Below, piece after piece: positions 1,257 to 13,083 of a DNA stretch of 20,000 nt. Position numbers and translations under genes: made by a program. The stretch is from the IMG/VR virus record IMGVR_UViG_3300030103_005378. The stretch is one strand, 5' to 3'. Below the pieces are notes generated by a model. The model was not told the origin of the DNA and searched no databases. It worked only from the letters and a program-made list of their open reading frames with translations. The DNA comes from an uncultured virus (IMG/VR IMGVR_UViG_3300030103_005378) (lineage: Duplodnaviria > Heunggongvirae > Uroviricota > Caudoviricetes). Within the stretch, counting starts at the first letter, position 1. Every line of letters begins with the position of its first letter.

Positions 1257-1281
1257 AATTATTTTCGTATATTACAGTATA
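1240..1281 (+). promoter_or_regulatory. Repeated early promoter element 2
   Basis: AGGAA 1240; TTCGTATATTACAGTATA, G at 1267. Confidence 0.8.
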
Positions 1282-1295
1282 TTTAAAGAAAAGTT

Positions 1296-1825: not shown

Positions 1826-1827
1826 GT

Positions 1828-2058
1828 ATGCAACTAAAATTAGAATTCCCAGAAGATCCAGAAGTACATTATAGAATTGAGGCTAATGTAGTAAAAGTTA
1901 GTTTCTATCCTGATTCTTGTGAAATTAAAGAGGAAAGATTAAGTCATGTTACTAAAGGATTTTCAAATTCAACCCCAGGTGAAAGTGCATACTGGGTAGA
2001 TGAAGAAAAAGCACTAGAATATTTAAGAAAGATAAAACATTATATTAAAGAGGAATAA
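1828..2058 (+). CDS. Hypothetical protein
   Basis: 76-aa ORF in operon. Confidence 0.75.
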   Translation: MQLKLEFPEDPEVHYRIEANVVKVSFYPDSCEIKEERLSHVTKGFSNSTPGESAYWVDEEKALEYLRKIKHYIKEE

Positions 2059-2092
2059 GGTTATTAAACTTAATTTCGTATATTATATTAAA
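2051..2092 (+). promoter_or_regulatory. Repeated early promoter element 3
   Basis: AGGAA 2051; TTCGTATATTATATTAAA, G at 2078. Confidence 0.8.
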
Positions 2093-2103
2093 TAAAAAAG
2101 GTT

Positions 2104-2349
2104 ATGACAAAGGAATTTAGTAAAGAATTAGCAAGAATACAAAGAGATAGCTTTGTAGAAAGACAAATACAATTATATGCTGATTATCTCCCAAAGCGAT
2201 TCAAAGAAATACAAGAAGAATCAGAAAAATTAGATTGGAGAGATAGAAACACATATGAAGCAGGTTGTTTTAAAAATCTATTAGAAACAGCAATTGAACA
2301 AATTACAGCAGTAAATAAAAATCTTGAGGAAAGAAGAAATGAACAATAA
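2104..2349 (+). CDS. Hypothetical protein
   Basis: 81-aa ORF after promoter element. Confidence 0.8.
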   Translation: MTKEFSKELARIQRDSFVERQIQLYADYLPKRFKEIQEESEKLDWRDRNTYEAGCFKNLLETAIEQITAVNKNLEERRNEQ

Positions 2350-2470
2350 AATAAAATTAACAGAAGCACTTCCACACATTAAGCACATTGCTAAATGTTA
2401 CGGGTTGAAATTAAATTTATTATCTGATTTTAAAATAGCTAGAGTGATTTGGGCTAGAAGTTTAAATTAG
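2339..2470 (+). CDS. Small hypothetical protein (43 aa, MNNKIKLTEAL...)
   Basis: Hand-translated; fills gap up to next promoter element. Confidence 0.55.
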   Translation: MNNKIKLTEALPHIKHIAKCYGLKLNLLSDFKIARVIWARSLN

Positions 2471-2511
2471 GGAATAGAAGATATAACTATATTTTCGTAT
2501 ATTTCAGTATA
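2470..2511 (+). promoter_or_regulatory. Repeated early promoter element 4
   Basis: GGGAA 2470; TTCGTATATTTCAGTATA, G at 2497. Confidence 0.8.
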
Positions 2512-2527
2512 AATAAAGAAAAAAATT

Positions 2528-2941
2528 ATGAAAGCAAAGGATTTATTTAAAACAATAATAGAAAATGAAATAGATATTTCATTTGAAATAGCTCAACATT
2601 GGTACACATATCAAAACCTTAGTGCAAAGAAGGGATATGAAAAGATAGCTAAAATACAATTCCTAGATTGTGTTAAGGTAGAAATAGAAAAAAGTCTATT
2701 CATACAAAAGGATTGGTATTTAGAATGGCTAGAGGGACAATTTGAGAATGATCTCCCAAATGTAAGTAGTGGTAGTACCATGACAGCATTATTAGATGTG
2801 GATAATGTATTTAACCAATTTGAACCATCAATCATGGAGGTTGATGAAGAACTAGTTAATGAATTGTATGGTGAAATAATCAACTACCAGCACAAATTAA
2901 TAGGTAATTTGAGAGTTGAGAGAGGAATAGATTTATATTAA
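2528..2941 (+). CDS. Hypothetical acidic protein
   Basis: 137-aa ORF after promoter element. Confidence 0.85.
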   Translation: MKAKDLFKTIIENEIDISFEIAQHWYTYQNLSAKKGYEKIAKIQFLDCVKVEIEKSLFIQKDWYLEWLEGQFENDLPNVSSGSTMTALLDVDNVFNQFEPSIMEVDEELVNELYGEIINYQHKLIGNLRVERGIDLY

Positions 2942-2964
2942 TCTTTTTCGTATATTACATCAAA
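2923..2964 (+). promoter_or_regulatory. Repeated early promoter element 5
   Basis: AGGAA 2923; TTCGTATATTACATCAAA, G at 2950. Confidence 0.75.
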
Positions 2965-2976
2965 ATTAAAAAGGTT

Positions 2977-3282
2977 ATGACAATTAAGGAAATTAAAGAA
3001 CAGTTACAATTTAAAAAAGTAGTATTCAACGTTAAAGGACATAAAGATTATCAAGAAGGACCTGATGGTAAATATGGTGATTACCCAACTAAGTTTAGAA
3101 CACATGGTAGTGAAGGGAAACGTGGAACGGGTGCAATATTTAAAGGTTTTTCAGATGGAATGAATGTAACTAAGTTTGGTCCTACTTGTGTTACGTTATA
3201 CACTTATGATATGTTAGGTAAAAAAACAGTAGGCAAAATAAAATATGCTGATGTAACAATACTAGAAGGTGAAACAGATTAA
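2977..3282 (+). CDS. Hypothetical protein
   Basis: 101-aa ORF, AAAAGGTTATG start. Confidence 0.85.
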   Translation: MTIKEIKEQLQFKKVVFNVKGHKDYQEGPDGKYGDYPTKFRTHGSEGKRGTGAIFKGFSDGMNVTKFGPTCVTLYTYDMLGKKTVGKIKYADVTILEGETD

Positions 3283-3382
3283 AGTAACACAGAAAGAAAT
3301 TAATGACGCAACGCGTCCAAGTATTCAAAAGAATAAAAAGAAGTATACTAGAAAAAAGAAACATAAAAATGGAGAAGAATAA
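3269..3382 (+). CDS. ArfA-like basic peptide (37 aa)
   Basis: GTG start; MKQIKVTQKEINDATRPSIQKNKKKYTRKKKHKNGEE resembles the ArfA core RxxxxKNKK..YxRKxKH. Confidence 0.55.
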   Translation: MKQIKVTQKEINDATRPSIQKNKKKYTRKKKHKNGEE

Positions 3383-3671
3383 TTTATATATAACTGATTT
3401 GTGTGTGGGACATAGATCAATCTATTATCAAACACCTGAAGTACCTGATAGGGCTATTGGGGATGATATTAAAGAATTACTAGAAGATAAGTATGTTCAC
3501 AACGTTAGTATGAGATTTATTTACGTTGATTGTGATGGAATAGAATGTAAGGGTGAAGTTACAGTTAATGGAATAGATGATTATGAAGATTTTGAAATGT
3601 ATGATGAGGATTTTCATGAAAAAACACAATTAACAGAAGAAAATATAATTGATTTATTTGAATTTGATTAA
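3369..3671 (+). CDS. Hypothetical acidic protein
   Basis: ORF track 3303..3671; likely start ATG 3369 (MEKNNL). Confidence 0.75.
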   Translation: MEKNNLYITDLCVGHRSIYYQTPEVPDRAIGDDIKELLEDKYVHNVSMRFIYVDCDGIECKGEVTVNGIDDYEDFEMYDEDFHEKTQLTEENIIDLFEFD

Positions 3672-3712
3672 GGAATATTTTTCTAGAAAAAAAGTTCGTA
3701 TATTATAGTATA
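3671..3712 (+). promoter_or_regulatory. Repeated early promoter element 6
   Basis: AGGAA 3671; TTCGTATATTATAGTATA, G at 3698; 37 nt identical to element 8. Confidence 0.85.
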
Positions 3713-3729
3713 TTTAAAAAAAGAAAGTT

Positions 3730-4260
3730 ATGTTAAGTGAAAAAGTATTTAAAAGCGGTTATGATGTTACAAGTAAATCAAAACTAGCAGGTGGTGAAAA
3801 AAATGATTGTTTTGTTAGGGCTTGTTCTAATGCATTTGATGTTAGTTATGAAGCAGCACATGAATTTGTAGCGGAACGATTTAATAGAAAAAACGGTAAA
3901 GGAACTAAAATGTGTAATCTTAGAATGAAAGATTTACAAAATGAAGTTATTGAATTCCAACCTGAAGGACAATTAAGTTTATTTAGTGATAATGGTGGAA
4001 AACGAATTAAAGTAAAACACATTGGTGATACACCTAAAACAGGTGGACGATTAATTAATAAGGACTATACACATAAAAAAGTAGCATATACAGTTAAAAC
4101 ATTTATGCAACGATTTAGAAAAGGAACTTATATATTGCTAGTTAATAAACATGCCTTAGTATGTAAAGGTGGTGTAATATTTGATAATGGTGATATGCAG
4201 TTTGGTGGTTATAGACGACCTGTTGAATCAGCATTTAAAATAGAGGAAGAGCTTAATTAA
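3730..4260 (+). CDS. Phage protein with NDCxVRA...H...D motifs (possible papain/C39-like fold)
   Basis: 176 aa; NDCFVRAC and YILLVNKHALVCKGGVIFD motifs; function inferred only. Confidence 0.7.
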   Translation: MLSEKVFKSGYDVTSKSKLAGGEKNDCFVRACSNAFDVSYEAAHEFVAERFNRKNGKGTKMCNLRMKDLQNEVIEFQPEGQLSLFSDNGGKRIKVKHIGDTPKTGGRLINKDYTHKKVAYTVKTFMQRFRKGTYILLVNKHALVCKGGVIFDNGDMQFGGYRRPVESAFKIEEELN

Positions 4261-4285
4261 AAGCTCTTTTGTATATTATAGTATA
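4244..4285 (+). promoter_or_regulatory. Repeated early promoter element 7 with internal hairpin
   Basis: AGGAA 4244; G at 4271; AAGAGCTT/AAGCTCTT inverted repeat in spacer. Confidence 0.8.
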
Positions 4286-4310
4286 AATAGAGAAAAAAAG
4301 GAAAAAAGTT

Positions 4311-4649
4311 ATGAAAATTAGAAGTAAAACATTATTAGTAACAGTTGTTAATGAAATTAAAATTGGAAAAAACGATGCAATAGAAGCAACTGTAGAGCAT
4401 CAAATAATTGCCTATGATAAAAAAGATGGATCAGTTGGGATAGATACGGAATTTATTGATATCTATGATGTTAAATTTTTAGGAATGCCCATTGATACAG
4501 GATATGAAGCATATAGAGGATTTAAAAAGCAAATGCTAGAATTAGGAGTTAATGTTGAAGAGTTAGTAGATGAAGCTGTTAAAGGAATTGTTTCTAAAAA
4601 GGAAGAATTTGATGTTAAAAAAATGTTTATAAATTCAAATAGTAAATAA
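4311..4649 (+). CDS. Hypothetical protein
   Basis: 112-aa ORF, AAAAGTTATG start. Confidence 0.85.
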   Translation: MKIRSKTLLVTVVNEIKIGKNDAIEATVEHQIIAYDKKDGSVGIDTEFIDIYDVKFLGMPIDTGYEAYRGFKKQMLELGVNVEELVDEAVKGIVSKKEEFDVKKMFINSNSK

Positions 4650-4657
4650 AGAAAGTT

Positions 4658-4963
4658 ATGAGTAAATATCAAGAGTTATTACAAAACCCATTTTATATGA
4701 ATGGTAAAACAGTTAAGGAAAATGCTAAAGAAGTAATATTCTATGTAGTGAGTTGTATGTGTGATAATAAATACACACTACGATTCAGAAAGAATGATAA
4801 TGATGAGTTTAAAATGAGTGGGATGGGATTTGCTTTAAGTAATTTCCAATTCGAGTTTAAACCATTTGAAATAGAATGGATAGCAGATGAAGGTGATTGG
4901 ATTGGAGTAAAAAACATGATTAACACGGGAACTATTAAGGTTGAAAAAGTAATAAGCAGATAA
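4658..4963 (+). CDS. Hypothetical protein
   Basis: 101-aa ORF, AAAGTTATG start. Confidence 0.85.
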   Translation: MSKYQELLQNPFYMNGKTVKENAKEVIFYVVSCMCDNKYTLRFRKNDNDEFKMSGMGFALSNFQFEFKPFEIEWIADEGDWIGVKNMINTGTIKVEKVISR

Positions 4964-4973
4964 AAATAAAAAT

Positions 4974-5681
4974 ATGATAGCTTACGTATTTGATGTAGAT
5001 GGAACTTTAACACCTAGTAGATTACCAATTGATAAAGAATTTGAAAAGTTTTTTAGTGAGTGGATGAAAGGAAAAAAGGTGTTTTTTGTAACAGGTTCCA
5101 ACAGTGATAAAACTATTGAACAAGTAGGATTAAATATATGGAAAAATGTAACAGCCTCACTCCAATCATGTGGTAATCAAATATTTGTTAATGGGGATGA
5201 AATTTACAAAAATGAATGGAAACCTAATTCACAACTGATTAAACTATTAGAAGGGTTTCTAGTTAGTTCTAGTTATGAAAAAAGAACTTCAAACCACATT
5301 GAAGAAAGAGTAGGATTATTAAATTTTTCTGTTATTGGAAGGGATTGTACCCAAGAAGAAAGAGAAGCTTATTATGAATGGGATAAAAATTCTAATGAAA
5401 GAATTCAAATGGTTGAAAAAATCATGAACACATTCCCAGAACTAGAAGTTTCAGTTGGGGGACAAATTTCAATAGACATATATCCCAAAGGAGCTAGTAA
5501 AGGCCAAGCTAAAGATTGGATATTAAATTACCTAAATGAAGATGTTAATATTCACTTCTACGGTGATAAAACTGAAATTGGAGGTAATGATTATGACTTA
5601 GCTAAAGTATTAAAGGGAGATAAACATAAAGTATTTCAAGTTAATGATTGGAAAGAAACATATAAACTCTTAAAAAAGTAG
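4974..5681 (+). CDS. HAD-IIB hydrolase, eukaryote-type phosphomannomutase-like
   Basis: FDVDGTLT (motif I), VTGS, ERxGLLNFS, GGQISIDI and YGDKTEIGGND match PMM1/PMM2/Sec53 family motifs. Confidence 0.9.
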   Translation: MIAYVFDVDGTLTPSRLPIDKEFEKFFSEWMKGKKVFFVTGSNSDKTIEQVGLNIWKNVTASLQSCGNQIFVNGDEIYKNEWKPNSQLIKLLEGFLVSSSYEKRTSNHIEERVGLLNFSVIGRDCTQEEREAYYEWDKNSNERIQMVEKIMNTFPELEVSVGGQISIDIYPKGASKGQAKDWILNYLNEDVNIHFYGDKTEIGGNDYDLAKVLKGDKHKVFQVNDWKETYKLLKK

Positions 5682-5721
5682 GAATATTTTTCTAGAAAAA
5701 AAGTTCGTATATTATACTATA
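5680..5721 (+). promoter_or_regulatory. Repeated early promoter element 8
   Basis: AGGAA 5680; G at 5707; duplicate of element 6. Confidence 0.85.
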
Positions 5722-5737
5722 TTTAGAGAGAGAAATT

Positions 5738-5989
5738 ATGACAAAAAAAGAAATACATAGAGAAATTAGAAGTAGATTCTACGAAGTAGTAAACGAAAAA
5801 TTTCCACAATACGATATTGATAGTGATGGATATGGTAGAATGCAATTAGTAAATGGAAGAAATATAATAGAATATCACATGTCAAGACACACATTATGTG
5901 GATATAGTGACAATTCAAAACAATGTCATGATGATGAGCTAGAAATGGAGGAGCTACTAAATGAAATAGTTGGACAATACGAGATCTAG
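5738..5989 (+). CDS. Hypothetical protein
   Basis: 83-aa ORF after promoter element. Confidence 0.8.
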   Translation: MTKKEIHREIRSRFYEVVNEKFPQYDIDSDGYGRMQLVNGRNIIEYHMSRHTLCGYSDNSKQCHDDELEMEELLNEIVGQYEI

Positions 5990-6033
5990 CTTTTTACTAT
6001 ACACTACCCAGCAAACGAATACGTATATACTAG

Positions 6034-6075
6034 GGGAATAGTTTAATTTACTAGAAGTTCGTATATTACATGTAT
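6034..6075 (+). promoter_or_regulatory. Repeated early promoter element 9
   Basis: GGGAA 6034; TTCGTATATTACATGTATG, G at 6061. Confidence 0.8.
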
Positions 6076-6214
6076 GAAAAAAGAGATAAAAAAGAAATTA
6101 TGGCCTTACTACATTAAGGAAAAACTAAATATAAGTTTTGAAAGTTATTATCAAAGGAATAAAGATAAGGTAATGATAAGTTCGTTTAATAGGAAGTTAA
6201 TTTGGAAAAAATAG
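6074..6214 (+). CDS. Small basic protein (46 aa, MKKEIKKKLW...), possibly leaderless
   Basis: Hand-translated; the only ORF of reasonable length between elements 9 and 10. Confidence 0.55.
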   Translation: MKKEIKKKLWPYYIKEKLNISFESYYQRNKDKVMISSFNRKLIWKK

Positions 6215-6217
6215 ATA

Positions 6218-6259
6218 AGGAATAGTTTAATTAACTAGAAGTTCGTATATTATAGTATA
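6218..6259 (+). promoter_or_regulatory. Repeated early promoter element 10
   Basis: AGGAA 6218; TTCGTATATTATAGTATA, G at 6245. Confidence 0.85.
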
Positions 6260-6275
6260 AATAAAGAGAAAAATT

Positions 6276-6533
6276 ATGAAGATTACAGATATTTTAGATG
6301 CAAAATTAAATTTAGGGATGGATCACATGGATTTAGAACATGACCAAAAATGTATTATAGAGGAGTTAAAACAATTACATAGGGAAATGGAGGAAGATGC
6401 AGAACCAGAGGGTGGACATATATGTGATCAATATGCAGATGCTATTCATAAAAAAGAACGTGAATTAGAAAAAATTACTAGAAAGATGCAGGTAATAAGT
6501 GATAAAATTGATGAATTAGAAAATTTAATATAA
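6276..6533 (+). CDS. Hypothetical coiled-coil protein
   Basis: 85-aa ORF, helical hairpin pattern around AEPEGG. Confidence 0.8.
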   Translation: MKITDILDAKLNLGMDHMDLEHDQKCIIEELKQLHREMEEDAEPEGGHICDQYADAIHKKERELEKITRKMQVISDKIDELENLI

Positions 6534-6667
6534 TGGAAATGTTATTACTTAGGATATTAATGTATTTCATGGTTTTTTCTCTTGGTTTAGTAATAGTTTT
6601 AGGTATTATAGGAGTAGGAGTGTACATAGAAAATTTTATTAGTGATATAAAAAGGAAAAATAAATAA
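6533..6667 (+). CDS. Small membrane protein (44 aa)
   Basis: Hand-translated MEMLLLRILMYFMVFSLGLVIVLGIIGVGVYIENF...; TAATG coupling. Confidence 0.6.
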   Translation: MEMLLLRILMYFMVFSLGLVIVLGIIGVGVYIENFISDIKRKNK

Positions 6668-6668
6668 A

Positions 6669-7043
6669 ATGGAACATAGAATAAACATAAACGGAGAGTG
6701 GTACGTGAAGGAAAATACCCAGAAAAAAGAAACATACAAATTAGGTGATACATTTAGTTTAAACTTTGATTATGAGGGAATGCTGAATTGTGGGTTATTA
6801 GCAGGGGTAACTACGAGTGTAAATAATTTAGAGAAATTACTAGATAGTTTTGAGGACGTGAATTACCATAGGGAAGCAGCACCATTATATGACTTGATTG
6901 AACACATTAAGTATCAAAACGAGTATGGATCAAATGAGGTAACAAGAGAAAACATAGATGAATCGTTACGTGCATTTAAAAAGGAATGTGAGGATACACT
7001 GAAAAACATAATTGGTTCAACATTGAGAATTGATGAAGAATAA
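6669..7043 (+). CDS. Hypothetical protein
   Basis: 124-aa ORF in operon. Confidence 0.8.
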   Translation: MEHRININGEWYVKENTQKKETYKLGDTFSLNFDYEGMLNCGLLAGVTTSVNNLEKLLDSFEDVNYHREAAPLYDLIEHIKYQNEYGSNEVTRENIDESLRAFKKECEDTLKNIIGSTLRIDEE

Positions 7044-7049
7044 ACAAAA

Positions 7050-7396
7050 TAAAACGTGGATTACCAATGATTATTACCAAAACATCTATTACAATGATTA
7101 TTACCAAAAATCGTTGATTACCACGGAAAGTGAATTACCAATGTGTGGAATGAATGATAAGGTGTGGAAAACGATTATTACCAAAGAAAATGATTATTAC
7201 AAGAATATTATATAGTGTGTGGAAAGTGTATTACAATGTGTTGGGGATAGTTTTAACACTACCCTAACCCATCCATTGCCCAGACACGTCCTTTTAACGT
7301 ACTTCCAAAAGTATATACAAAACCACGTGAAACACACGGTAAAACGTGGATTACCACAAGGTTTATTACAATGTTTATTACAATGTTTATTACCAG
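7050..7396. repeat. ATTAC(C/A) iteron-like repeat array
   Basis: About 13 ATTAC copies; 17-bp direct repeat TAAAACGTGGATTACCA at 7050 and 7340; 12-bp tandem GTTTATTACAAT at 7361-7396. Confidence 0.8.
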
Positions 7397-7438
7397 AGGA
7401 AGAGGATTATTAAAAGGTAATTCGTATGTTACCGTATA
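7397..7438 (+). promoter_or_regulatory. Repeated early promoter element 11
   Basis: AGGAA 7397; TTCGTATGTTACCGTATA, G at 7424. Confidence 0.7.
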
Positions 7439-7452
7439 TTTAAAAAAAGGTT

Positions 7453-7611
7453 ATGAAAGAAAATGATATTTTAAAAGATTATATTAAATCACTAGGTTTA
7501 ACTTACAACATTAAAGAATCTATATCGATACTGAAACAAGAGGTTGCCACGTATGGTTATGTACCTATTGAATATTTAAATCAGGAAGATAGATGTTCAT
7601 GGATGAATTAA
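7453..7611 (+). CDS. Small hypothetical protein (52 aa, MKENDILKDY...)
   Basis: Hand-translated; AAAAGGTTATG start after promoter element. Confidence 0.65.
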   Translation: MKENDILKDYIKSLGLTYNIKESISILKQEVATYGYVPIEYLNQEDRCSWMN

Positions 7612-7731
7612 AATAGTTTATTACCCTACTAGAACGGGGATTACAATGTTTGCTAGCGGGTTACTGAGTAATGCAAGAGGTAACGGGATGGTTTTCAGGT
7701 TTGTACCCAACCAAACAAACCTATATTACCC

Positions 7732-7773
7732 AGGAAGTTTATTATAAAAAGATTATTCGTATATTATAGTATA
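7732..7773 (+). promoter_or_regulatory. Repeated early promoter element 12
   Basis: AGGAA 7732; TTCGTATATTATAGTATA, G at 7759. Confidence 0.85.
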
Positions 7774-7786
7774 TTAAAAAGATATT

Positions 7787-7972
7787 ATGAAAAGAGTTGA
7801 AATAAAAGGTACTGACAATAGAGATATTTACACTACAGATGTTATACTAGAAAACAACACAGTGGTAGAAATAAATCCTATTAACTTATTTGAAAATGTA
7901 ATATTAAATAGGGATGAAAGTAAAGAATTGGAATTAATGTTTAATAAATTGGTTAAAAAATTAAAGGAATAG
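7787..7972 (+). CDS. Hypothetical protein
   Basis: 61-aa ORF after promoter element. Confidence 0.75.
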   Translation: MKRVEIKGTDNRDIYTTDVILENNTVVEINPINLFENVILNRDESKELELMFNKLVKKLKE

Positions 7973-8006
7973 TTTAATTTACTAGAAATTTGTATATTGT
8001 ATTATA
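7965..8006 (+). promoter_or_regulatory. Repeated early promoter element 13
   Basis: AGGAA 7965; TTTGTATATTGTATTATA, G at 7992. Confidence 0.8.
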
Positions 8007-8025
8007 ATTAAAAAGATAAAATAAA

Positions 8026-8379
8026 ATGGGAAGAAAATTTAGAGTTATTGAAGATGTATGTACAGGAATTGTTGATTACAGAATTGATGAAGAAATGTTT
8101 GTAGGTGATGAATGGAAAGATTGTTTTAGTGATGTATTTTATAAAGGAGATGTTTATGAAGTAATGAATGATCATATTATGAATGAATTTAAATCTGATG
8201 AAGATGGTGAAATGATTGAACCTGAATTAATGTGTATTAAAGGAAAAAATAAAATTAGTATGGAAGAAGTATTAGATATGAATACTAGTGAAGATGATTT
8301 ATATTATAGTACTATAGGAATGGAATATAGTAATTTTTATTGGGAAGGTTTTAAAGAATTTGTTGAAGAGATAAAATAA
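8026..8379 (+). CDS. Acidic hypothetical protein (DNA-mimic candidate)
   Basis: 117 aa, about 31 D/E vs 12 K/R by hand count. Confidence 0.8.
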   Translation: MGRKFRVIEDVCTGIVDYRIDEEMFVGDEWKDCFSDVFYKGDVYEVMNDHIMNEFKSDEDGEMIEPELMCIKGKNKISMEEVLDMNTSEDDLYYSTIGMEYSNFYWEGFKEFVEEIK

Positions 8380-8421
8380 AGGAATATTTATTTTAATAGA
8401 AATTTTATATATTATATTATA
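8380..8421 (+). promoter_or_regulatory. Repeated early promoter element 14 (G to A variant)
   Basis: AGGAA 8380; TTTATATATTATATTATA at the same spacing (8407). Confidence 0.65.
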
Positions 8422-8468
8422 TTTAAAAAGTTAAATTATTAAAAATTAAAAGTTAAAAAAGGTAAATT

Positions 8469-8882
8469 ATGGGTAAATTAAGTAGAATTGAGTTAGATGT
8501 TGTTAGTAATGAAGTTTATAGTAAAGTTGTAGAGGAAGTTAATGATAAATGTTTAAAAATTGTTAATGAAAATGTTGATTTTAGTTTATTAGAGGAATTA
8601 AGAGAAGTAGAATTAAAAAAGGAAAAATTAGAAAATGAATTAAATGATTTTGTTAATAAGGTTAATGATGAATTTAATATTAGAATTACTTATAATAGTG
8701 TAGGAAGATATGGTTATAAGGAAAATAAAAATTTGTTTAATATTGTAGGAAGTGTTGATTATAATTGTAAAAGAAATATTGAAAAAGAATTAATATTAAA
8801 TGGTATTGATAAAGGAATTGATATTAAAGAATTAATTAATAATATGGTTAAGGATTTTGTAAGTAAAGAATTTAAGAGTTAA
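8469..8882 (+). CDS. Hypothetical coiled-coil protein; gene contains a single C
   Basis: 137-aa ORF; only C is at 8689. Confidence 0.85.
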   Translation: MGKLSRIELDVVSNEVYSKVVEEVNDKCLKIVNENVDFSLLEELREVELKKEKLENELNDFVNKVNDEFNIRITYNSVGRYGYKENKNLFNIVGSVDYNCKRNIEKELILNGIDKGIDIKELINNMVKDFVSKEFKS

Positions 8883-8904
8883 TTTTTAATTATATATAGT
8901 AATG

Positions 8905-8933
8905 GAAGTCCTGTTAAAGGACTTCTGTTATTT
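8905..8933 (+). terminator. Terminator-like hairpin overlapping promoter element 15
   Basis: GAAGTCCT-GTTAA-AGGACTTC followed by TGTTATTT. Confidence 0.65.
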
Positions 8934-8959
8934 AATAAAAATTTGTATATTGTAGTATA
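8918..8959 (+). promoter_or_regulatory. Repeated early promoter element 15
   Basis: AGGAC 8918; TTTGTATATTGTAGTATA, G at 8945. Confidence 0.8.
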
Positions 8960-8975
8960 ATTAAAAAGATAAAAT

Positions 8976-9560
8976 ATGTTTAAGGAAAGTAGTAAAGTAA
9001 AAGAGTTAAAAAGTATTAGGAAAGGTTTATTAAAAGAAAGTAATGATTTTAAAAATGAATTATTAAATAAAATATTTAAAGATTTAAATTTAAGTTTTTA
9101 TGTTAGTTATAATGATTTATATAGTGTTAAAGGAGGTGAGTGTAGAAGGTTAAAAGGATGGATTAGTAATTATAATGATGATGTATATAATAGTTTAAGT
9201 GATAAAAATAGATTAATTAGTGATAATGAAAAATTTAATAAAGTAAAAGATTATTTAAATAGTAAGGATTTTGGTAAATATGAAGTTGAAATTTGTAAAT
9301 TAAGTGATTATAGTTGGTATTGGTATAGGAATTTCTTTTTAAAATATGAAGAAAATTGGGGTAAGAATTGGTTTGATTATAAAAATGAAATGTTAGAAAA
9401 GGAAACTACTTTAATTATTAAAATTAAATGGAAAGGAGTTAATATGAATAGAGTATTAAATGAGGAAGATGGAGGATTTAGAAAAGTAGGTAAATATTGT
9501 AGTGTAACTAGGAAGTGGGTATTAACTGGTGAAATTGAAGATTTAAAAAGAGTTGTTTAA
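8976..9560 (+). CDS. Hypothetical protein; C-depleted gene
   Basis: 194-aa ORF with 5 C in 585 nt. Confidence 0.85.
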   Translation: MFKESSKVKELKSIRKGLLKESNDFKNELLNKIFKDLNLSFYVSYNDLYSVKGGECRRLKGWISNYNDDVYNSLSDKNRLISDNEKFNKVKDYLNSKDFGKYEVEICKLSDYSWYWYRNFFLKYEENWGKNWFDYKNEMLEKETTLIIKIKWKGVNMNRVLNEEDGGFRKVGKYCSVTRKWVLTGEIEDLKRVV

Positions 9561-9583
9561 ATAAAATAAAATAAATATTGTAC

Positions 9584-9625
9584 AGGACCCCCTTATATAG
9601 GGGGTTTTTTGTATATTATAGTATA
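9584..9625 (+). promoter_or_regulatory. Repeated early promoter element 16
   Basis: AGGAC 9584; TTTGTATATTATAGTATA, G at 9611. Confidence 0.8.
9587..9610 (+). terminator. Intrinsic terminator inside promoter element 16 spacer
   Basis: ACCCCCT-TATAT-AGGGGGT then TTTTT. Confidence 0.8.
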
Positions 9626-9639
9626 ATTAAAAAGGTAAT

Positions 9640-9825
9640 ATGTTAGATAAAGAAAAGGTAAATAAAATTTATAATGACTTGTTAGAATTATATAATAGTG
9701 GTGAACTAGAAGAAAGGTTAATTTTAAAAAGTGATGTTAAATTAAGAAGTTTTTTAATTGATTTATGTGGTAGTATTGGTGATGATTATAGTGTTTTTGT
9801 TGATAGAAGTTGTTTTGAGGAATAA
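9640..9825 (+). CDS. Hypothetical protein; C-depleted gene
   Basis: 61-aa ORF with 2 C. Confidence 0.75.
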   Translation: MLDKEKVNKIYNDLLELYNSGELEERLILKSDVKLRSFLIDLCGSIGDDYSVFVDRSCFEE

Positions 9826-9859
9826 GATAATTAATAAGTAATTTGTATATTATATTATA
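9818..9859 (+). promoter_or_regulatory. Repeated early promoter element 17
   Basis: AGGAA 9818; G at 9845. Confidence 0.8.
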
Positions 9860-9872
9860 ATTAAAAAGAGAT

Positions 9873-10334
9873 ATGAAATTTAAAAAAGAATATTTAAAAT
9901 TGGGTATTGTTGAAAGATTAAAAAAATTAAGGGTAATATATTATGGAGAACCATTATTAGGAAGTGGTGGTTATGATTATGGTGAAGAAGATTATTTGGA
10001 TATTAAGGGTGAGGATGATTTAGAATATAGAGTGTATAGTGAGGATGAGGGTGATTTTGATGATATATATTTTGATGAGTGGTTTAGTGATTGTGATGGG
10101 TTTGAAATTGAAGATAATGGTGATGGAGGTGATTATGGATATTATAAATTGGTAGTGGATAAAGAAAATAAAAGTATTAAAGTAATGGCAGTTCCTTGTG
10201 TATTCACTAATGCAGGATGTAGTAGTAAGAGAATATGGGGGTTTGATTGGAAAAGTGGTGAGTTGGTTAGAGAAATAAGTAATGAAGAGGTAAAAGAAAT
10301 GTTAAATAAAGATAAAAGAGCTTTTTGTGGGTAA
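9873..10334 (+). CDS. Hypothetical protein with highly acidic/aromatic core
   Basis: 153 aa; DYGEEDY...DEGDFDDIYFDEWFSDCDGFEIEDNGDGGDYGYY. Confidence 0.85.
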   Translation: MKFKKEYLKLGIVERLKKLRVIYYGEPLLGSGGYDYGEEDYLDIKGEDDLEYRVYSEDEGDFDDIYFDEWFSDCDGFEIEDNGDGGDYGYYKLVVDKENKSIKVMAVPCVFTNAGCSSKRIWGFDWKSGELVREISNEEVKEMLNKDKRAFCG

Positions 10335-10375
10335 GGAATGTTTTAATTAATATTTATTTTGTATATTATAGTATA
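10334..10375 (+). promoter_or_regulatory. Repeated early promoter element 18
   Basis: AGGAA 10334; G at 10361. Confidence 0.8.
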
Positions 10376-10391
10376 ATTAAAAAAAAAACAT

Positions 10392-10574
10392 ATGAATAAA
10401 TTAAGGTTTGTTACGGACGATATTAAAGAGTTAAAAGAATTTAAAGTTAAATTAAACGAATTGGTAGAGGATCATCATCACGGAATACATTTAATTGATG
10501 ATATATTTCACTATATAGGGCAAATAAATAAAACTTTAGATTATGTTATAATGCAGGACGAAGCAAATAAATAA
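10392..10574 (+). CDS. Hypothetical protein
   Basis: 60-aa ORF after promoter element. Confidence 0.75.
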   Translation: MNKLRFVTDDIKELKEFKVKLNELVEDHHHGIHLIDDIFHYIGQINKTLDYVIMQDEANK

Positions 10575-10596
10575 ATAATTCGTATATTATAGTATA
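10555..10596 (+). promoter_or_regulatory. Repeated early promoter element 19
   Basis: AGGAC 10555; TTCGTATATTATAGTATA, G at 10582. Confidence 0.8.
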
Positions 10597-10612
10597 ATTA
10601 AAAAATGATAAA

Positions 10613-10798
10613 ATGAATAAAATTAAATTAGAGAAGGACGCGGGATTAAGATTCCCAGCTGAGGAAGGTTTTTATGGGATAATCGTTAGTGCACGTCCTC
10701 CAATGCATGTTTGGGGAGATAAAATTTATACATTGGAAGTGTATGATAAAAATGATAAATACGTTGGTAAATGGAGTGGGAAACATGATGATTTTTAA
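10613..10798 (+). CDS. Hypothetical protein
   Basis: 61-aa ORF after promoter element. Confidence 0.75.
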   Translation: MNKIKLEKDAGLRFPAEEGFYGIIVSARPPMHVWGDKIYTLEVYDKNDKYVGKWSGKHDDF

Positions 10799-10805
10799 AT
10801 CATTA

Positions 10806-10847
10806 TGGAATTTTAAAATTAATAAATAATTTGTATATTATAGTATA
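10806..10847 (+). promoter_or_regulatory. Repeated early promoter element 20
   Basis: TGGAA 10806; G at 10833. Confidence 0.8.
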
Positions 10848-10871
10848 ATTAAAAATAAATAAAAAAAAGTT

Positions 10872-11201
10872 ATGAAAAAAGTAAGTGTAAAATTAGGACG
10901 ACCTGTTAATGTGAATAGTAAAAGACAAATTAGGTTGAGAGAATTGGAAGAAAAAAGAAAAAATGGTGAGTTGAAAAGAGGACGACCTGTTAATGAAAAT
11001 AGTGTTAGACAAAAGGAACTTGAAAGAAAAAAGTTTAATAGAGAAAATGGAATTGAGTTAAGAGGTAGAAAAGTGAATCCTTTAAGTGTAAGACAAATTA
11101 GGTTAAAGGAATTAGAAGAAAAAAGAAAAAATGGAACTTTAAAATTAGGACGACCTAAAAAAGTAAAGGTTGAAGATAGTAATGAAGTTGTAAATAAATA
11201 A
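10872..11201 (+). CDS. Basic repeat protein with AT-hook-like GRP motifs (putative DNA-binding)
   Basis: 28-aa period; GR(P/K) at residues 9, 37, 65, 93. Confidence 0.85.
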   Translation: MKKVSVKLGRPVNVNSKRQIRLRELEEKRKNGELKRGRPVNENSVRQKELERKKFNRENGIELRGRKVNPLSVRQIRLKELEEKRKNGTLKLGRPKKVKVEDSNEVVNK

Positions 11202-11257
11202 ATTAAGTTAGATAGTAAGGTTAGTTCAATAATGAAAAATGGTTTTTTGTTTGTAAA

Positions 11258-11299
11258 AGGACTAACCTTATTAATACTAAGTTTGTATATTGTAGTATA
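11258..11299 (+). promoter_or_regulatory. Repeated early promoter element 21
   Basis: AGGAC 11258; TTTGTATATTGTAGTATA, G at 11285. Confidence 0.8.
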
Positions 11300-11315
11300 A
11301 TTAAAAAAAGATAGT

Positions 11316-11483
11316 ATGTTAGAAACAATGTTAAGAGGTTATTATTATAAGTCCTACAATTTAGTATTTGTAGATGATATTATTGGTTATGTATCTCAGG
11401 AATGGTGGTATACAAATGGTAAGAAGTATTTGGAGGATGAAGGATTTAGAAAAGAAGTAAGTGATTTAATAAATAAAGTATAA
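11316..11483 (+). CDS. Small hypothetical protein (55 aa, MLETMLRGYYY...)
   Basis: Hand-translated; follows promoter element. Confidence 0.65.
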   Translation: MLETMLRGYYYKSYNLVFVDDIIGYVSQEWWYTNGKKYLEDEGFRKEVSDLINKV

Positions 11484-11501
11484 ATAAAAAAAAGAAAAAA
11501 G

Positions 11502-11726
11502 ATGATAACAATAACAATAGTTTTTATGTCATTCATAGTGAATTGCCATCTGTTAGTTTATATAAGACAAGAACAAAAAAAATACCACAACATTATTTTT
11601 AAAGTCCAAGAGGATCAGTGGGATGAAATAATACAAATAGGACGAACTGTCAGAGCTATAGATAAGAAAATAGAAGACAGTACTATTAATAAAACAGAAC
11701 TTCGGTTTAAAAAGTTTCATAGATAA
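11502..11726 (+). CDS. Hypothetical membrane-anchored protein
   Basis: 74 aa, hydrophobic N-terminus. Confidence 0.7.
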   Translation: MITITIVFMSFIVNCHLLVYIRQEQKKYHNIIFKVQEDQWDEIIQIGRTVRAIDKKIEDSTINKTELRFKKFHR

Positions 11727-11729
11727 ATA

Positions 11730-11771
11730 GGGAATACCAGTTTAAATAGGTAGTTTGTATATTGTAGTATA
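11730..11771 (+). promoter_or_regulatory. Repeated early promoter element 22
   Basis: GGGAA 11730; G at 11757; near-duplicate of element 23. Confidence 0.8.
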
Positions 11772-11787
11772 ATTTTAAAGGGTAAAT

Positions 11788-12084
11788 ATGAAAGATTTTA
11801 GTGGTTATAGTGATGACGATTTGTTAAATGAGTTAGATCATTTGAATTTAGAAATTAGTTGTGAGTTGGGTACTGAAAGAGGAACAACACTTGAGAAATT
11901 ATTTTGGTTAGTAACGAAAGAACTTGAAAGAAGAGGAATAGACCCTATTACAGGTGAAGAAATTATTGTTGGTACTGATGTACTTGATGATGACTATGAA
12001 GAAGATGTTGAGGTTGAGGAGAAAGGTAATTTTGGGTTTGGTAGAGAGGAGGGTAGGTTTGATGAGTATGATTTACCTATTTAA
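11788..12084 (+). CDS. Very acidic hypothetical protein (DNA-mimic candidate)
   Basis: 98 aa, about 30 D/E vs 9 K/R by hand count. Confidence 0.8.
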   Translation: MKDFSGYSDDDLLNELDHLNLEISCELGTERGTTLEKLFWLVTKELERRGIDPITGEEIIVGTDVLDDDYEEDVEVEEKGNFGFGREEGRFDEYDLPI

Positions 12085-12125
12085 TGAATACCAGTTTAGA
12101 TAGATAGTTCGTATATTGTAGTATA
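12084..12125 (+). promoter_or_regulatory. Repeated early promoter element 23
   Basis: ATGAA 12084 (variant); TTCGTATATTGTAGTATA, G at 12111. Confidence 0.75.
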
Positions 12126-12140
12126 ATTAAAAAAAGAAAT

Positions 12141-12344
12141 ATGTTTGAAAAAGAAATGTTGTTGGGATTGAGTAAAGAGATGAAACTAGGATTGTTGGAT
12201 GATGCTAATAAAACTGGTGAGTATACAATCGTAATGCAAATGATGAAGATACTATTGGATGCACCTATAAGTGAGGGTGGTATTAGTAGTGATGAGATAC
12301 AAGAAGTACTTGGTATGAAAAAACAGTACGGTAGGTTTAAATAA
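12141..12344 (+). CDS. Hypothetical protein
   Basis: 67-aa ORF after promoter element. Confidence 0.75.
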   Translation: MFEKEMLLGLSKEMKLGLLDDANKTGEYTIVMQMMKILLDAPISEGGISSDEIQEVLGMKKQYGRFK

Positions 12345-12355
12345 GAAATTGGTAT

Positions 12356-12536
12356 TACTCACCTCGGCGAGAGGAATGACCAAGAAATGGTTGGGTTGCT
12401 TAAAATAGAGGGGAGCAGCGAGGTGAGTATAGATATTTGGTTTAAGGGTTTTAGCCATCAAAATAAAACCCATATCTTTTTTAATTATACAATCGCCAAC
12501 GGCTCTACACCAACCCATGTGTAGGGCTTTAGGTGA
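12356..12536 (+). ncRNA. Candidate structured RNA (three-way junction, terminator-like hairpin, third hairpin)
   Basis: Perfect 11-bp stem 12356-12366/12419-12429 enclosing two small stems; GGGTTTTA/TAAAACCC stem plus T6; GCTCTACAC/GTGTAGGGC stem; no family recognised. Confidence 0.45.
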
Positions 12537-12553
12537 CCAAAAAACAAAAGTAT

Positions 12554-12805
12554 ATGACAAAGAGAGGTACAATAGCAATCATGCAAAAATTAGAGGCGCA
12601 ATCATGGGTAGCACAAGATGAGTGGAAAGAGTTATATGGTACAGATAGCAAGCATTATCGCCACCTAGAAACACGTTGGAAAACATTGTACATGGTACTC
12701 AAAGCGTGCGGATACGATCCAAATTACGATCTACGTAACCAGATGCTCAGCCAAGATATCAAGGGTAGAGGGTTAGCGAGTGCTGGTTCGTATATTGTGG
12801 TATGA
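12554..12805 (+). CDS. Hypothetical protein
   Basis: ORF track 12533..12805; ATG 12554 with A-rich leader preferred. Confidence 0.7.
   Translation: MTKRGTIAIMQKLEAQSWVAQDEWKELYGTDSKHYRHLETRWKTLYMVLKACGYDPNYDLRNQMLSQDIKGRGLASAGSYIVV
12763..12804 (+). promoter_or_regulatory. Repeated early promoter element 24 (degenerate upstream box)
   Basis: TTCGTATATTGTGGTATG, G at 12790; GGT instead of GGA at 12764. Confidence 0.65.
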
Positions 12806-13083
12806 TTAAAATGAGATTTATGGAAAATGTAATGGTGTTAAGGGAAAAAGTAATGGTTAATAATGTAGATGTCAAAAAGTTTGTTCTGTCTAGATACCCA
12901 AATCTTGATATTGCTCAAGTATGGAACAATTGGAACTGTGATACATTTAAGGTGTGGTATAATGATGTAAGTAAATATACAGGTAAGAAAAGAGTGTACA
13001 CACTTACAGTTAGATTAATGGCTGATGGTAGTTTGGTAATTGGTAAGTATGTAAATAATAAGTGGATAACTAAAACTAAGTAA
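12802..13083 (+). CDS. Hypothetical protein
   Basis: 93-aa ORF; start may be 12802 or 12811. Confidence 0.75.
   Translation: MIKMRFMENVMVLREKVMVNNVDVKKFVLSRYPNLDIAQVWNNWNCDTFKVWYNDVSKYTGKKRVYTLTVRLMADGSLVIGKYVNNKWITKTK

What the first reader, a model, noticed from the sequence alone, without database searches (positions are those of the whole stretch)
7787..12084. Nucleotide constraint reshapes the proteome: alanine-free proteins and 2.5 kb without GpC
Seen: proteins at 7787, 8026, 8469, 8976, 9640, 10872, 11316 and 11788 contain no Ala; those at 8469, 8976 and 9640 also lack Pro, Gln and His. I find no GpC dinucleotide between 7675 and 10187 and no CpG between 7760 and about 10412. Flanking genes (7787, 10872, 11788) keep C in AC/CC/TC contexts yet still avoid GC. 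Inference: selection against specific motifs (e.g. GCGC, GGCC, AGCT, TGCA, GCNGC), not just uniform C loss, which favours a DNA-targeting defence over CTP supply.
Basis: partly seen in the sequence, partly recalled or inferred. Interest (0 to 1): 0.75.

Follow-up and report, generated by a model that had tools for sequence, protein, structure and literature searches.

The report
Phage early genes written without cytosine
A marine phage carries a row of small early-type genes spelled almost entirely with A, G and T, so their proteins use only about 15 amino acids; selection has kept this for a very long time, probably so the messages can be made and survive when cytidine is under attack.

Summary
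On the + (sense) strand, window 7886-10188 has 29 C in 2,303 nt (1.3%). It contains the longest GpC-free (2,515 nt) and CpG-free (2,656 nt) intervals of the 156-kb phage genome, and 8 proteins lack Ala.

The motif reading does not hold. Every class of C-containing codon is purged 4- to 35-fold, synonymous ones most. Surviving C sits mainly after A (Thr ACN, NAC codons), and GpC, TpC and CpC fall alike. The rest of the genome carries hundreds of AGCT, TGCA and GATC sites.

The trait is gene-by-gene and selected. In a tree of the 194-aa gene, T>C occurs 7 times against 102 A>G. Between two relatives, C<->T : A<->G is 4:49 in the block and 2844:3041 elsewhere. A C-normal gene with the same promoter sits inside the block.

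Two families (137 aa, 194 aa) are C-free throughout: 77 of 85 and 89 of 102 homologs lack the C-dependent residues, and so do most remote homologs.

The phage encodes a DpdA3-type 7-deazaguanine pathway, but seven other DpdA3-encoding genomes have at most one C-poor gene.

Best reading (0.42): three-letter messages immune to a cytidine-directed process, either ddhCTP or CTP shortage from the host, or the phage's own shut-off. I found no description in print.

The parts
7886..10188 (+). Core cytosine-free block: 29 C in 2,303 nt on the sense strand
10189..12250 (+). C-poor flank (6.1% C), a mosaic of C-poor and C-normal cassettes
7787..7972 (+). 61-aa ORF; all 12 of its C lie before 7886; no Ala
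7990..8016 (+). class-B promoter-like box TTGTATATTGTATTATAATTAAAAAGA
8026..8379 (+). 117-aa acidic ORFan (2.3% C, pI 4.1)
8405..8431 (+). class-B box (TTA variant) followed by a longer A/T-only leader
8469..8882 (+). 137-aa gene with 1 C here and 0 C in relatives; family C-free throughout; predicted long helical hairpin plus small alpha/beta part
8905..8925 (+). hairpin GAAGTCC-loop-GGACTTC after the stop codon; holds 4 of the block's C
8943..8969 (+). class-B box (the consensus copy)
8976..9560 (+). 194-aa basic protein (pI 9.2) with 5 C, 4 of them Thr ACT; family with motif NDLY..KGGEVRRLKG, C-free throughout
9584..9608 (+). intrinsic-terminator-like hairpin CCCCC/GGGGG plus a T run; holds 6 C
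9609..9635 (+). class-B box
9640..9825 (+). 61-aa ORFan (2 C)
9843..9869 (+). class-B box
9873..10334 (+). 153-aa acidic ORFan (1.9% C; D+E 23.5%)
10359..10385 (+). class-B box
10392..10574 (+). 60-aa ORFan (8.2% C)
10580..10606 (+). class-B box (TCG variant)
10613..10798 (+). 61-aa gene that keeps about 9% C in three genomes (dN/dS 0.08-0.11): internal control against regional hypermutation
10831..10857 (+). class-B box
10872..11201 (+). 109-aa very basic repeat protein (pI 11.0; GRP/RGRP motifs), 4.8% C, no Ala
11283..11309 (+). class-B box
11316..11483 (+). 55-aa ORFan (4.2% C)
11755..11781 (+). class-B box
11788..12084 (+). 98-aa very acidic ORFan (D+E 30.6%; 5.7% C; no Ala)
12109..12135 (+). 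class-B box (TCG variant)
12141..12344 (+). 67-aa ORFan (6.9% C); last cassette before composition returns to normal

Best explanation
The region is an array of about a dozen one-gene cassettes. Each has its own 27-bp conserved promoter-like box 12-20 nt before the ATG, and some have a hairpin terminator. This is the layout of phage early genes. Early timing is inferred from layout, not shown.

Purifying selection acts gene by gene against cytosine on the sense strand. The mRNAs are three-letter (A, G, U) messages and the proteins use about 15 amino acids. C is the only base a gene can drop: ATG and the three stop codons lack it, and 24 sense codons remain (standard genetic code).

The proposed purpose is that these messages can be synthesised without CTP and offer no cytidine to any enzyme. 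First-line take-over or counter-defence proteins are then still made when cytidine is the point of attack. The attack could come from the host, as a viperin-type chain terminator (ddhCTP) or CTP depletion. It could also be the phage's own C-directed shut-off of host expression.

How C-free a gene becomes is a balance between this pressure and constraint on the protein.

Shown: the C loss, its strand and gene specificity, selection, and deep conservation. Inferred: early timing, that the target is RNA or its synthesis, and the identity of the agent.
For: 1. All C-codon classes are purged, synonymous ones most. C remains in terminator stems after stop codons. Both fit a per-C cost within the message.

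2. Selection rather than drift.
- In a tree of 22 distinct 194-aa genes (26 sequences of equal length; 506 inferred changes), T>C occurs 7 times against A>G 102 times, and 3 against 35 at synonymous sites. Binomial P = 6e-18.
- Between this genome and a relative, C<->T: A<->G mismatches are 4:49 in the block and 2844:3041 elsewhere. Fisher P = 2e-10.

3. The trait is gene-specific.
- A 61-aa gene with the same promoter box inside the block keeps about 9% C in 3 of 3 genomes, including the synonymous codons GAC and TTC, with dN/dS about 0.1.
- C content of neighbouring cassettes ranges from 0 to 9%.

4. The trait travels with the gene.
- All 40 of 40 metagenomic homologs of the 194-aa gene have 0-8 C. 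This includes 36%-identical 139-aa forms whose neighbours have 15-21% C.
- 89 of 102 homologs have no A/P/H/Q.
- 77 of 85 homologs of the 137-aa protein have none of A/P/H/Q/T.
- The 17 remote homologs of at least 100 aa from a profile search hold 10 A, 2 P, 2 H, 3 Q and 18 T in 2,195 residues.

5. Distribution is patchy among related phages, as is usual for accessory anti-defence genes.

6. The products are small, mostly acidic ORFans. dN/dS is about 0.8-1.9 for the three largest core genes (117, 137 and 194 aa) and 0.35 for the 61-aa core gene.

7. Leads only, from unchecked notes of this scan: C-free early genes in archaeal viruses, and a C-free sigma-factor gene family in Bacteroidota.
Against: - No cytidine-directed activity was identified. 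The host is unknown.
- Whether the polymerase that reads these promoters is sensitive to ddhCTP is unknown. My recollection that host RNA polymerases are less sensitive than T7-type enzymes comes from no call. No T7-type RNA polymerase was found, but that search's control rang nowhere, so it is uninformative.
- The 137-aa and 194-aa proteins have no recognisable fold or family that would tie them to CTP, viperin or RNA cleavage.
- Early timing is inferred from layout only.
- The phage's G-modification pathway offers a DNA-side alternative that predicts the same strand.
- If the weapon were the phage's own, the C-normal later genes would need separate protection.
Confidence: 0.42

Rival explanations
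1. The template strand is kept free of modified guanine. The virion DNA has its G replaced by a 7-deazaguanine derivative. A sense strand without C gives a template strand without any modified base, so the host polymerase can read the incoming DNA quickly and accurately before phage factors exist.
For: - The genome encodes a DpdA homolog whose only phage relatives are the DpdA3 group (immuto, CP220 group, phiST group), plus FolE2, QueC, QueD and QueE.
- In the closest cultured relative (TerL 57% identical), all dG is replaced by fdPreQ1 (PMC10516641, passages read).
- Bulky 7-substituents on 7-deazaG nearly abolish transcription by E. coli and B. subtilis RNA polymerase in vitro (PMC4838386, passages read).
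- It explains the strand specificity. Only C can be dropped from a gene, so only the template strand can be made G-free.
Against: - Seven other DpdA3-encoding genomes have at most one gene with under 5% sense-strand C: phiST 0, CP220 0, immuto 1, G005 0, G006 1 (3.5% C), G007 0, G003 0 (that contig is cut inside the block). This genome has 8 and its relative G001 has 12.
- Immuto's roughly 15 early-type cassettes have about 10% C, yet its DNA is fully modified.
- The cited in vitro inhibition was assigned to promoter recognition, with no elongation block seen, and unsubstituted 7-deazaG was tolerated.
- The trait follows two gene families into a distant phage of different composition.
Confidence: 0.2
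2. The displaced non-template DNA strand is protected from a single-strand cytosine deaminase, or from a nuclease acting at C, while the first genes are being heavily transcribed.
For: It predicts the same strand and gene specificity as the best explanation, and it predicts that promoters lose C. The TCG form of the promoter box becomes TTG or TTA in all 5 core cassettes.
Against: - No such defence was identified.
- The C-rich terminator stems and the C-normal 61-aa gene would be exposed too.
- TCG promoter boxes are tolerated before C-poor genes in the relative G001.
Confidence: 0.08
3. Escape from Rho-dependent termination, since Rho loads on C-rich RNA. A related version is unstructured messages for fast translation.
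For: - C-free RNA offers no YC dinucleotides (established knowledge of Rho; recalled, not from a call).
- Predicted folding is weaker: -0.116 kcal/mol/nt for the 5 genes under 3% C, against -0.167 for 66 genes at 8% C or more.
Against: - Removing the last few C per gene adds little against Rho or structure, yet synonymous C is purged 12- to 35-fold.
- The folding difference is only about 30%.
- The rest of the genome already has G above C.
Confidence: 0.08
4. Mutational origin: strand-specific C-to-T hypermutation of heavily transcribed DNA, either APOBEC-like or transcription-associated deamination.
For: The lost C is replaced mainly by T: T is 36.0% in the core against 28.8% upstream, and G rises slightly.
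Against: - It would need roughly a 100-fold or greater C-specific rate. That is my estimate, from non-selected C of about 0.2% against T 34% and the deficit of T>C events.
- The C-normal gene inside the block keeps synonymous C across genomes that differ by dS of about 0.2.
- Ile falls instead of rising, and Ser is kept at 6.5% through AGT codons.
- The ORFs stay open, with chance 4e-12 for 194 codons in this composition.
- The trait follows the gene into other genomic contexts.
Confidence: 0.04
5. One reading: avoidance of GC-containing recognition motifs of a DNA-targeting defence, such as restriction.
For: - A strand without C cannot hold any site that contains both G and C.
- Among surviving C, GpC is 2.5- to 3-fold below the genome norm.
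Against: - TpC and CpC fall alike.
- Hundreds of such motifs lie in the rest of the genome.
- There is no evidence of a fixed leading end.
- G modification already protects the relative's DNA.
Confidence: 0.03

Closest known systems
Target-free messages of mRNA-interferase systems (ACA-less mRNAs immune to MazF; GCU-free mqsR/mqsA). Recalled, not from a call.
   Same: A transcript escapes an RNA-directed activity by lacking its target, at the cost of codon and amino-acid choice.
   Different: Here a whole nucleotide is missing rather than a 3-nt word, and five amino acids are lost. The trait is conserved across entire protein families of phages. No nuclease is known.
Restriction-site avoidance, and the site-free first-step-transfer DNA of phage T5. 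Recalled, not from a call.
   Same: Early phage DNA is purged of sequence features that a defence could hit before counter-measures are made.
   Different: Here the purge is strand-specific, motif-independent and gene-by-gene. No fixed leading end was found.
Purine loading (Szybalski's rule) and transcription-linked strand asymmetry
   Same: The sense strand is richer in G than in C. The whole genome shows a mild form, with GC skew about 0.1-0.3.
   Different: Skew here reaches 0.94. It is confined to particular genes, is maintained by selection against T>C changes, and removes amino acids.
[quoted passage not shown]
   Same: This phage has the DpdA3-like enzyme and the preQ0 pathway, and it is syntenic with immuto. 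Immuto has one C-free gene, gp143, at the same place.
   Different: No QueF or DpdN was found here. The C-free trait is absent or minimal in the other DpdA3 phages examined.
Prokaryotic viperins making ddhCTP. Recalled; the search listing shows only that such work exists.
   Same: This is a known antiviral activity whose point of attack is C incorporation into RNA. A C-free template region would be immune.
   Different: No link to this phage or its host was shown. No paper in the library connects viral C content with ddhCTP.
G-less and C-less cassettes used for in vitro transcription. The term was seen only in the listing.
   Same: Transcription units that can be completed with three NTPs.
   Different: Those are laboratory constructs. 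Here the units are natural, protein-coding and conserved.

Membership tests
Restriction-site / palindrome avoidance | Specific short motifs under-represented against a Markov expectation across the DNA exposed to the enzyme | tested here: not met
   Outside the block: AGCT 617 (O/E 0.89), TGCA 402 (0.77), GATC 310 (0.77), GCGC 34 (1.22), GGCC 48 (1.44).
Restriction-site / palindrome avoidance | Depletion specific to the motif context, not to a single base | tested here: not met
   All C-codon classes fall 4- to 35-fold. GpC, TpC and CpC shares fall alike, to 0.36-0.5 of reference.
T5-type first-step-transfer / leading-end early region | Lies at a fixed physical genome end | tested here: inconclusive
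   The contigs of this phage and of G001 are circular permutations of each other, with overlapping or repeat-bearing ends. Read-level termini were not available.
APOBEC-like / transcription-associated C-to-T hypermutation | Excess of C>T changes and decay of coding capacity | tested here: not met
   C>T 2 of 506 inferred events. C<->T 4 against A<->G 49 between genomes. ORFs are intact in 40 of 40 loci. A C-normal gene persists inside the block.
Purine loading / Szybalski strand asymmetry | Moderate, genome-wide excess of purines on the sense strand | tested here: met
   GC skew is about 0.1-0.3 over most of the genome. The block exceeds this by far (0.94), so the rule does not account for it.
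DpdA3 7-deazaguanine DNA modification system | DpdA3-family transglycosylase plus the preQ0 synthesis genes (FolE, QueD, QueE, QueC) | tested here: met
   DpdA homolog 36% identical to immuto DpdA3, with phage homologs only in the DpdA3 set. FolE2 by Pfam (E 8e-71). QueC, QueD and QueE 66-75% identical to immuto's.
DpdA3 7-deazaguanine DNA modification system | Modified base actually present in virion DNA | not testable with these tools
   Needs nucleoside LC-MS. Shown only for the relative immuto (PMC10516641).
Viperin (ddhCTP) evasion | Host encodes a viperin, and the polymerase reading these genes is stopped by ddhCTP | not testable with these tools
   The host is unknown.
Toxin-immune (target-free) mRNA | A ribonuclease whose recognition requires the missing element | not tested
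   No nuclease candidate was identified. Block proteins have no family or fold match.

The most novel reading that the evidence does not exclude
Three-letter genes are a general counter-strategy. Viruses, and perhaps some cells, keep a few key genes free of cytosine so that they can still be expressed when the cell poisons or withdraws CTP (viperin ddhCTP, CTP depletion) or attacks cytidine in RNA. The always-C-free 137-aa and 194-aa families would then be the counter-measure itself. On this reading, the C content of early viral genes would report which hosts use cytidine-directed immunity.
Probability: 0.25. Interest if true: 0.9.

Novelty: categorically new. Interest (0 to 1): 0.8.

Why it matters
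Natural protein-coding genes that do without one of the four bases, and whole protein families written in a 15-amino-acid alphabet, are not in the literature I could search.

They show that selection on the nucleic acid can override amino-acid choice for very long times. They give natural examples of folded proteins without Ala, Pro, His, Gln and mostly without Thr. They also point to a cytidine-directed step at the start of infection that is not yet identified.

If that step is host immunity such as ddhCTP or CTP withdrawal, sequence composition alone would mark the phage's first-line counter-defence genes. The question then becomes directly testable by recoding.

The category "categorically new" refers to the phenomenon. 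The mechanism may prove to be an extreme form of target avoidance.

Tried and rejected
- **Protein function.** PHROGs and Pfam on 15 block proteins gave nothing beyond two sub-threshold hits. The ESM Atlas gave no usable lead.
- **Structure, 194-aa protein.** AlphaFold model pLDDT 69. Best Foldseek E was 0.23. Best VIA-align Z was 7.0, to part of the FtsK motor, which is within the stated noise level.
- **Structure, 137-aa protein.** Model pLDDT 84, with no match in PDB or BFVD.
- **DNA similarity.** blastn of 7000-13000 against named phages found no match. tblastn of block proteins against immuto found nothing significant.
- **RNA families.** Rfam found none in the window.
- **Phage RNA polymerase.** Pfam on 12 large ORFs and a PF00940 search of the genome found none. 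The control genomes of the latter also rang nowhere, so absence is not shown.
- **Codon or tRNA idea.** The phage carries tRNA-Ala and tRNA-Gln. I rejected this as the main cause because synonymous C is purged most.
- **GpC-specific avoidance.** NGC and G|C-junction deficits looked specific. The larger pool showed that TpC and CpC fall equally, so I dropped it.
- **RNA evidence.** Two metatranscriptome runs hold short contigs over 28 of 30 bins of 6000-13000. These are contigs only, with no silent control stretch, so they show neither expression level nor timing.
- **137-aa protein in G003-G007.** 0 of 5 records matched, with no positive control in that call.
- **Collection-wide scan.** A scan of viral contigs for long C-free runs could not be run, so how widespread the trait is outside this lineage remains open.
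- **Loci L011 and L012.** They share only the 235-aa protein of 4974-5681 and show no C-free block within 10 kb.

Full report
**What the window is.** The window is the minus strand of positions 51437-71436 of a single 156,273-bp virus contig of about 30% G+C. 223 of 229 called ORFs lie on one strand. PHROGs on 121 ORFs of at least 130 aa show a myovirus: two sheath genes, tube, baseplate wedge, portal, capsid and TerL. They also show a T4-like replication set, GroEL/ES, PhoH and a QueC/D/E cluster.

[quoted passage not shown] Two IMG/VR records, G001 (155,669 bp) and G002 (57,384 bp), are close relatives at about 86% nucleotide identity over the aligned two-thirds. They are circular permutations of this contig.

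**Checking the observation.**
- The eight named proteins have no Ala.
- Those at 8469, 8976 and 9640 also lack Pro, Gln and His.
- GpC is absent from 7673 to 10188 and CpG from 7758 to 10414. These are the longest such gaps in the genome.

The larger fact is that the + strand of 7886-10188 holds 29 C in 2,303 nt, or 1.26%. Flanking values are 10.0% upstream, 6.1% in 10189-12250 and 12.4% downstream. GC skew reaches 0.94. C-free runs reach 409 nt. No other 1-kb bin of the genome comes close.

**Anatomy.** Each gene from 8026 to 12344, except the doubtful ORF at 11502-11726 (12% C, no box of its own), is preceded at 12-20 nt by a contiguous conserved box, T[T/C]GTATATT.TA.TATAATTAAAAAG.
- A mismatch scan with one copy found 21 related boxes in the genome, all on this strand, between 66.7 and 97.6 kb of the oriented genome.
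- Upstream, at window 1265-6243, a variant ending in TATAAAT or TATATTT drives genes with 7-10% C.
- Tail sheath and tube genes carry a different upstream word, ATATTTATAA. The box therefore marks a separate, presumably early, class. This is inference from layout.
- Two hairpins directly after stop codons (8905-8925 and 9584-9608, the latter with a T run) hold 10 of the 29 C.
- Immuto has the same architecture with its own box, TATATTTAGGTATCAATAATTAAAAC, about 15 times. It has one nearly C-free gene, gp143 (1.4% C), at the syntenic place.

**Is it motif avoidance?** No.
- Relative to the rest of the genome, the core genes have lost every class of C-containing codon. Per 1000 codons: Ala 4.5 vs 48.6, Thr 13.6 vs 59.3, Pro 4.5 vs 40.1, His 1.5 vs 15.4, Gln 0 vs 35.4, Ser-TCN 1.5 vs 52.3, Leu-CTN 1.5 vs 27.2, Arg-CGN 0 vs 8.8, NNC 6.0 vs 74.7.
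- Ser is kept at 6.5% by AGT codons.
- The GpC void follows from which C survive. Of the 29 C, 17 follow A and 17 precede T, mostly Thr ACT.
- NGC codons and G|C junctions at first looked specially depleted. In 178 distinct C-poor ORFs of relatives, however, G, T and C before C all fall to 0.36-0.5 of their reference share, while A rises from 37.5% to 62-73%.
- The CpG void is expected given genome-wide CpG O/E of 0.37.
- Outside the block the genome carries hundreds of AGCT, TGCA and GATC sites at near-expected numbers.

**Selection or mutation?** Selection.
- G001 and G002 have the same block, with partly different cassettes, almost all C-poor.
- All 40 metagenomic loci that encode a homolog of the 194-aa protein have 0-8 C in that gene. 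This includes 139-aa forms only 36% identical that sit among genes with 15-21% C. The preceding 137-aa gene has 0 C in every relative I read.
- I built a tree from the 26 sequences of exactly 585 nt: 23 of the 40 loci plus the three genomes, 22 distinct. Parsimony gives 506 changes. T>C occurs 7 times against A>G 102, synonymous 3 against 35, C>T 2 and G>A 114. Gains of C are 7 on internal and 9 on terminal branches (binomial P = 6e-18).
- Between this genome and G001, C<->T against A<->G is 4:49 in the core and 2844:3041 elsewhere.
- To hide that many T>C events by reversion would need a C-specific rate about 100-fold or more above normal (my estimate).
- The 61-aa gene at 10613-10798 argues against that. 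It has the same box and lies inside the block, yet it keeps about 9% C in all three genomes. This includes the synonymous codons GAC and TTC, at dS about 0.2 and dN/dS about 0.1.
- The ORFs are real. In this composition a random codon is a stop with P = 0.127, so 194 open codons have P = 4e-12.
- For the three largest core genes (117, 137 and 194 aa), dN/dS is 0.8-1.9 with low dS of about 0.05, even when sites are counted in an A/G/T-only alphabet. For the 61-aa core gene at 9640 it is 0.35 with dS about 0.22. The counts are small, 2-4 synonymous changes per gene, so I read this only as weak protein constraint or recent exchange.

**Protein families written without C.**
- 194-aa family: 102 homologs at 65-100% identity contain 3 Ala, 1 Pro, 1 His, 14 Gln and 343 Thr in 19,577 residues. 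89 of 102 have no A/P/H/Q.
- 137-aa family: 85 homologs contain 1 A, 1 P, 3 H, 4 Q and 11 T in 11,554 residues. 77 of 85 have none of the five.
- A profile search of 1.8 billion cluster representatives used an alignment of 57 of the 102 homologs and found 25 proteins. The 17 remote ones of at least 100 aa share a motif NDLY..KGGEVRRLKG. Together they hold 10 A, 2 P, 2 H, 3 Q and 18 T in 2,195 residues, and two of them (P0210, P0213) account for most of these.
- The 153-aa family (11 homologs) is less strict: 13 A, 15 P and 12 H.
- No family, fold or language-model neighbour gives a function.

**The DNA-modification lead.**
- The genome encodes a DpdA homolog. It is 36% identical to immuto's DpdA3, and its only homologs among named phages are immuto, the CP220 group, phiST and relatives, and weaker Bacillus-type phage hits (31 records). 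It also encodes FolE2, QueC, QueD, QueE, a phosphoribosyltransferase and a hydrolase, but no QueF or DpdN.
- In immuto all dG is replaced by fdPreQ1, and DpdA3 phages are fully modified (PMC10516641, passages read).
- Bulky 7-substituted 7-deazaG blocks bacterial transcription in vitro. The authors assign this to promoter recognition, saw no elongation block, and found plain 7-deazaG tolerated (PMC4838386, passages read).
- A sense strand without C is a template strand without modified G, which is attractive.
- The trait does not follow the pathway, though. Genes with under 5% sense C number 0 in phiST, 0 in CP220, 1 in immuto (160,000 of 160,410 nt read), 0 in G005, 1 in G006, 0 in G007 and 0 in G003. 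G003 is 75% complete and its contig begins inside the box region, so it is uninformative. This genome has 8 and G001 has 12.

**Most likely mechanism.** The data call for a cost attached to each C of the message (or each G of its template) in particular genes. That cost is weighed against protein constraint, and it persists wherever those genes go.
- I commit to cytidine-independent messages: transcripts that need no CTP and expose no C. They would encode first-line take-over or counter-defence proteins and face a cytidine-directed process. That process could be host ddhCTP or CTP withdrawal, or the phage's own C-directed shut-off.
- The agent is inferred. Nothing here identifies it.
- The modified-G-free template is second.
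- The remaining rivals are deaminase protection of the displaced strand, Rho or structure avoidance (predicted folding only about 30% weaker), hypermutation, and motif avoidance, in that order.
- Unchecked notes of this scan report C-free early genes in archaeal viruses, a C-free strand in a cyanophage, and a C-free sigma-factor family in Bacteroidota. I treat these as leads that favour a general cytidine-directed cause over a lineage-specific DNA modification.

**Literature.** Searches for cytosine-free, C-poor and C-less genes and for ddhCTP with viral C content returned no paper describing natural C-free phage genes (listings only). The supplements of PMC10516641 were not opened. They may list which DpdA subgroup and pathway genes related uncultured phages carry.

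Noticed in passing
window 1265-6243 versus 7990-12135: There are two sub-classes of one promoter-like box. The upstream class ends in TATAAAT or TATATTT and drives genes with 7-10% C. The downstream class ends in TATAATTAAAAAG and drives the C-poor cassettes. Sheath and tube genes elsewhere carry a different word, ATATTTATAA.
   Followed up: partly
window 7040-7790: A mostly non-coding, comparatively C-rich stretch just before the block is 94-95% identical in G001 and G002, above the genome average of about 86%. Rfam finds nothing there. It could hold a regulatory RNA or binding sites at the border of the two promoter classes.
   Followed up: partly
window 10872-11201: A 109-aa protein with pI 11.0 is built of repeats that carry GRP/RGRP motifs, resembling AT-hooks (a resemblance recalled, not tested). 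Its four Pro codons are among the few CCN codons kept.
   Followed up: no
window 9873-10334 and 11788-12084: Strongly acidic small proteins (D+E 23.5% and 30.6%, pI 4.5 and 4.1). This composition recalls DNA-mimic anti-restriction proteins, but that was not tested.
   Followed up: no
G000:C1 about 79489-80716 (L004:19489-19565, L005:307-716): A phage tRNA cluster: Ala(tgc), Gln(ttg), Asp(gtc), Glu(ttc), Leu(taa). Ala and Gln are two of the amino acids that the C-free genes avoid.
   Followed up: partly
G001:C1:98029-98577 (L021): An isolated 182-aa gene with 2.9% C and its own box, absent from this genome, sits among C-normal genes. C-poor cassettes therefore come and go singly.
   Followed up: partly
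L082 and L083 (metagenome loci): A distant phage of more C-rich composition carries the same box and the same C-free gene pair (137 aa with 0 C, 139 aa with 1 C). They lie next to genes with 15-21% C.
   Followed up: partly
contig ends of G000 (first and last about 100 nt): Both ends fall in a short tandem-repeat region: 73 nt are identical between the ends, in several registers. This is probably where a circular assembly was broken.
   Followed up: partly
G000:C1 106444-109416 (L006:6444-7376 and 7641-9416): The family-B DNA polymerase is split into two ORFs separated by a small ORF.
   Followed up: no
window 6000-13000, runs X15 and X16: Marine metatranscriptome assemblies contain many short contigs, 88-99% like this region, from several strains. 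Some joints skip whole cassettes, consistent with cassette shuffling among strains.
   Followed up: partly
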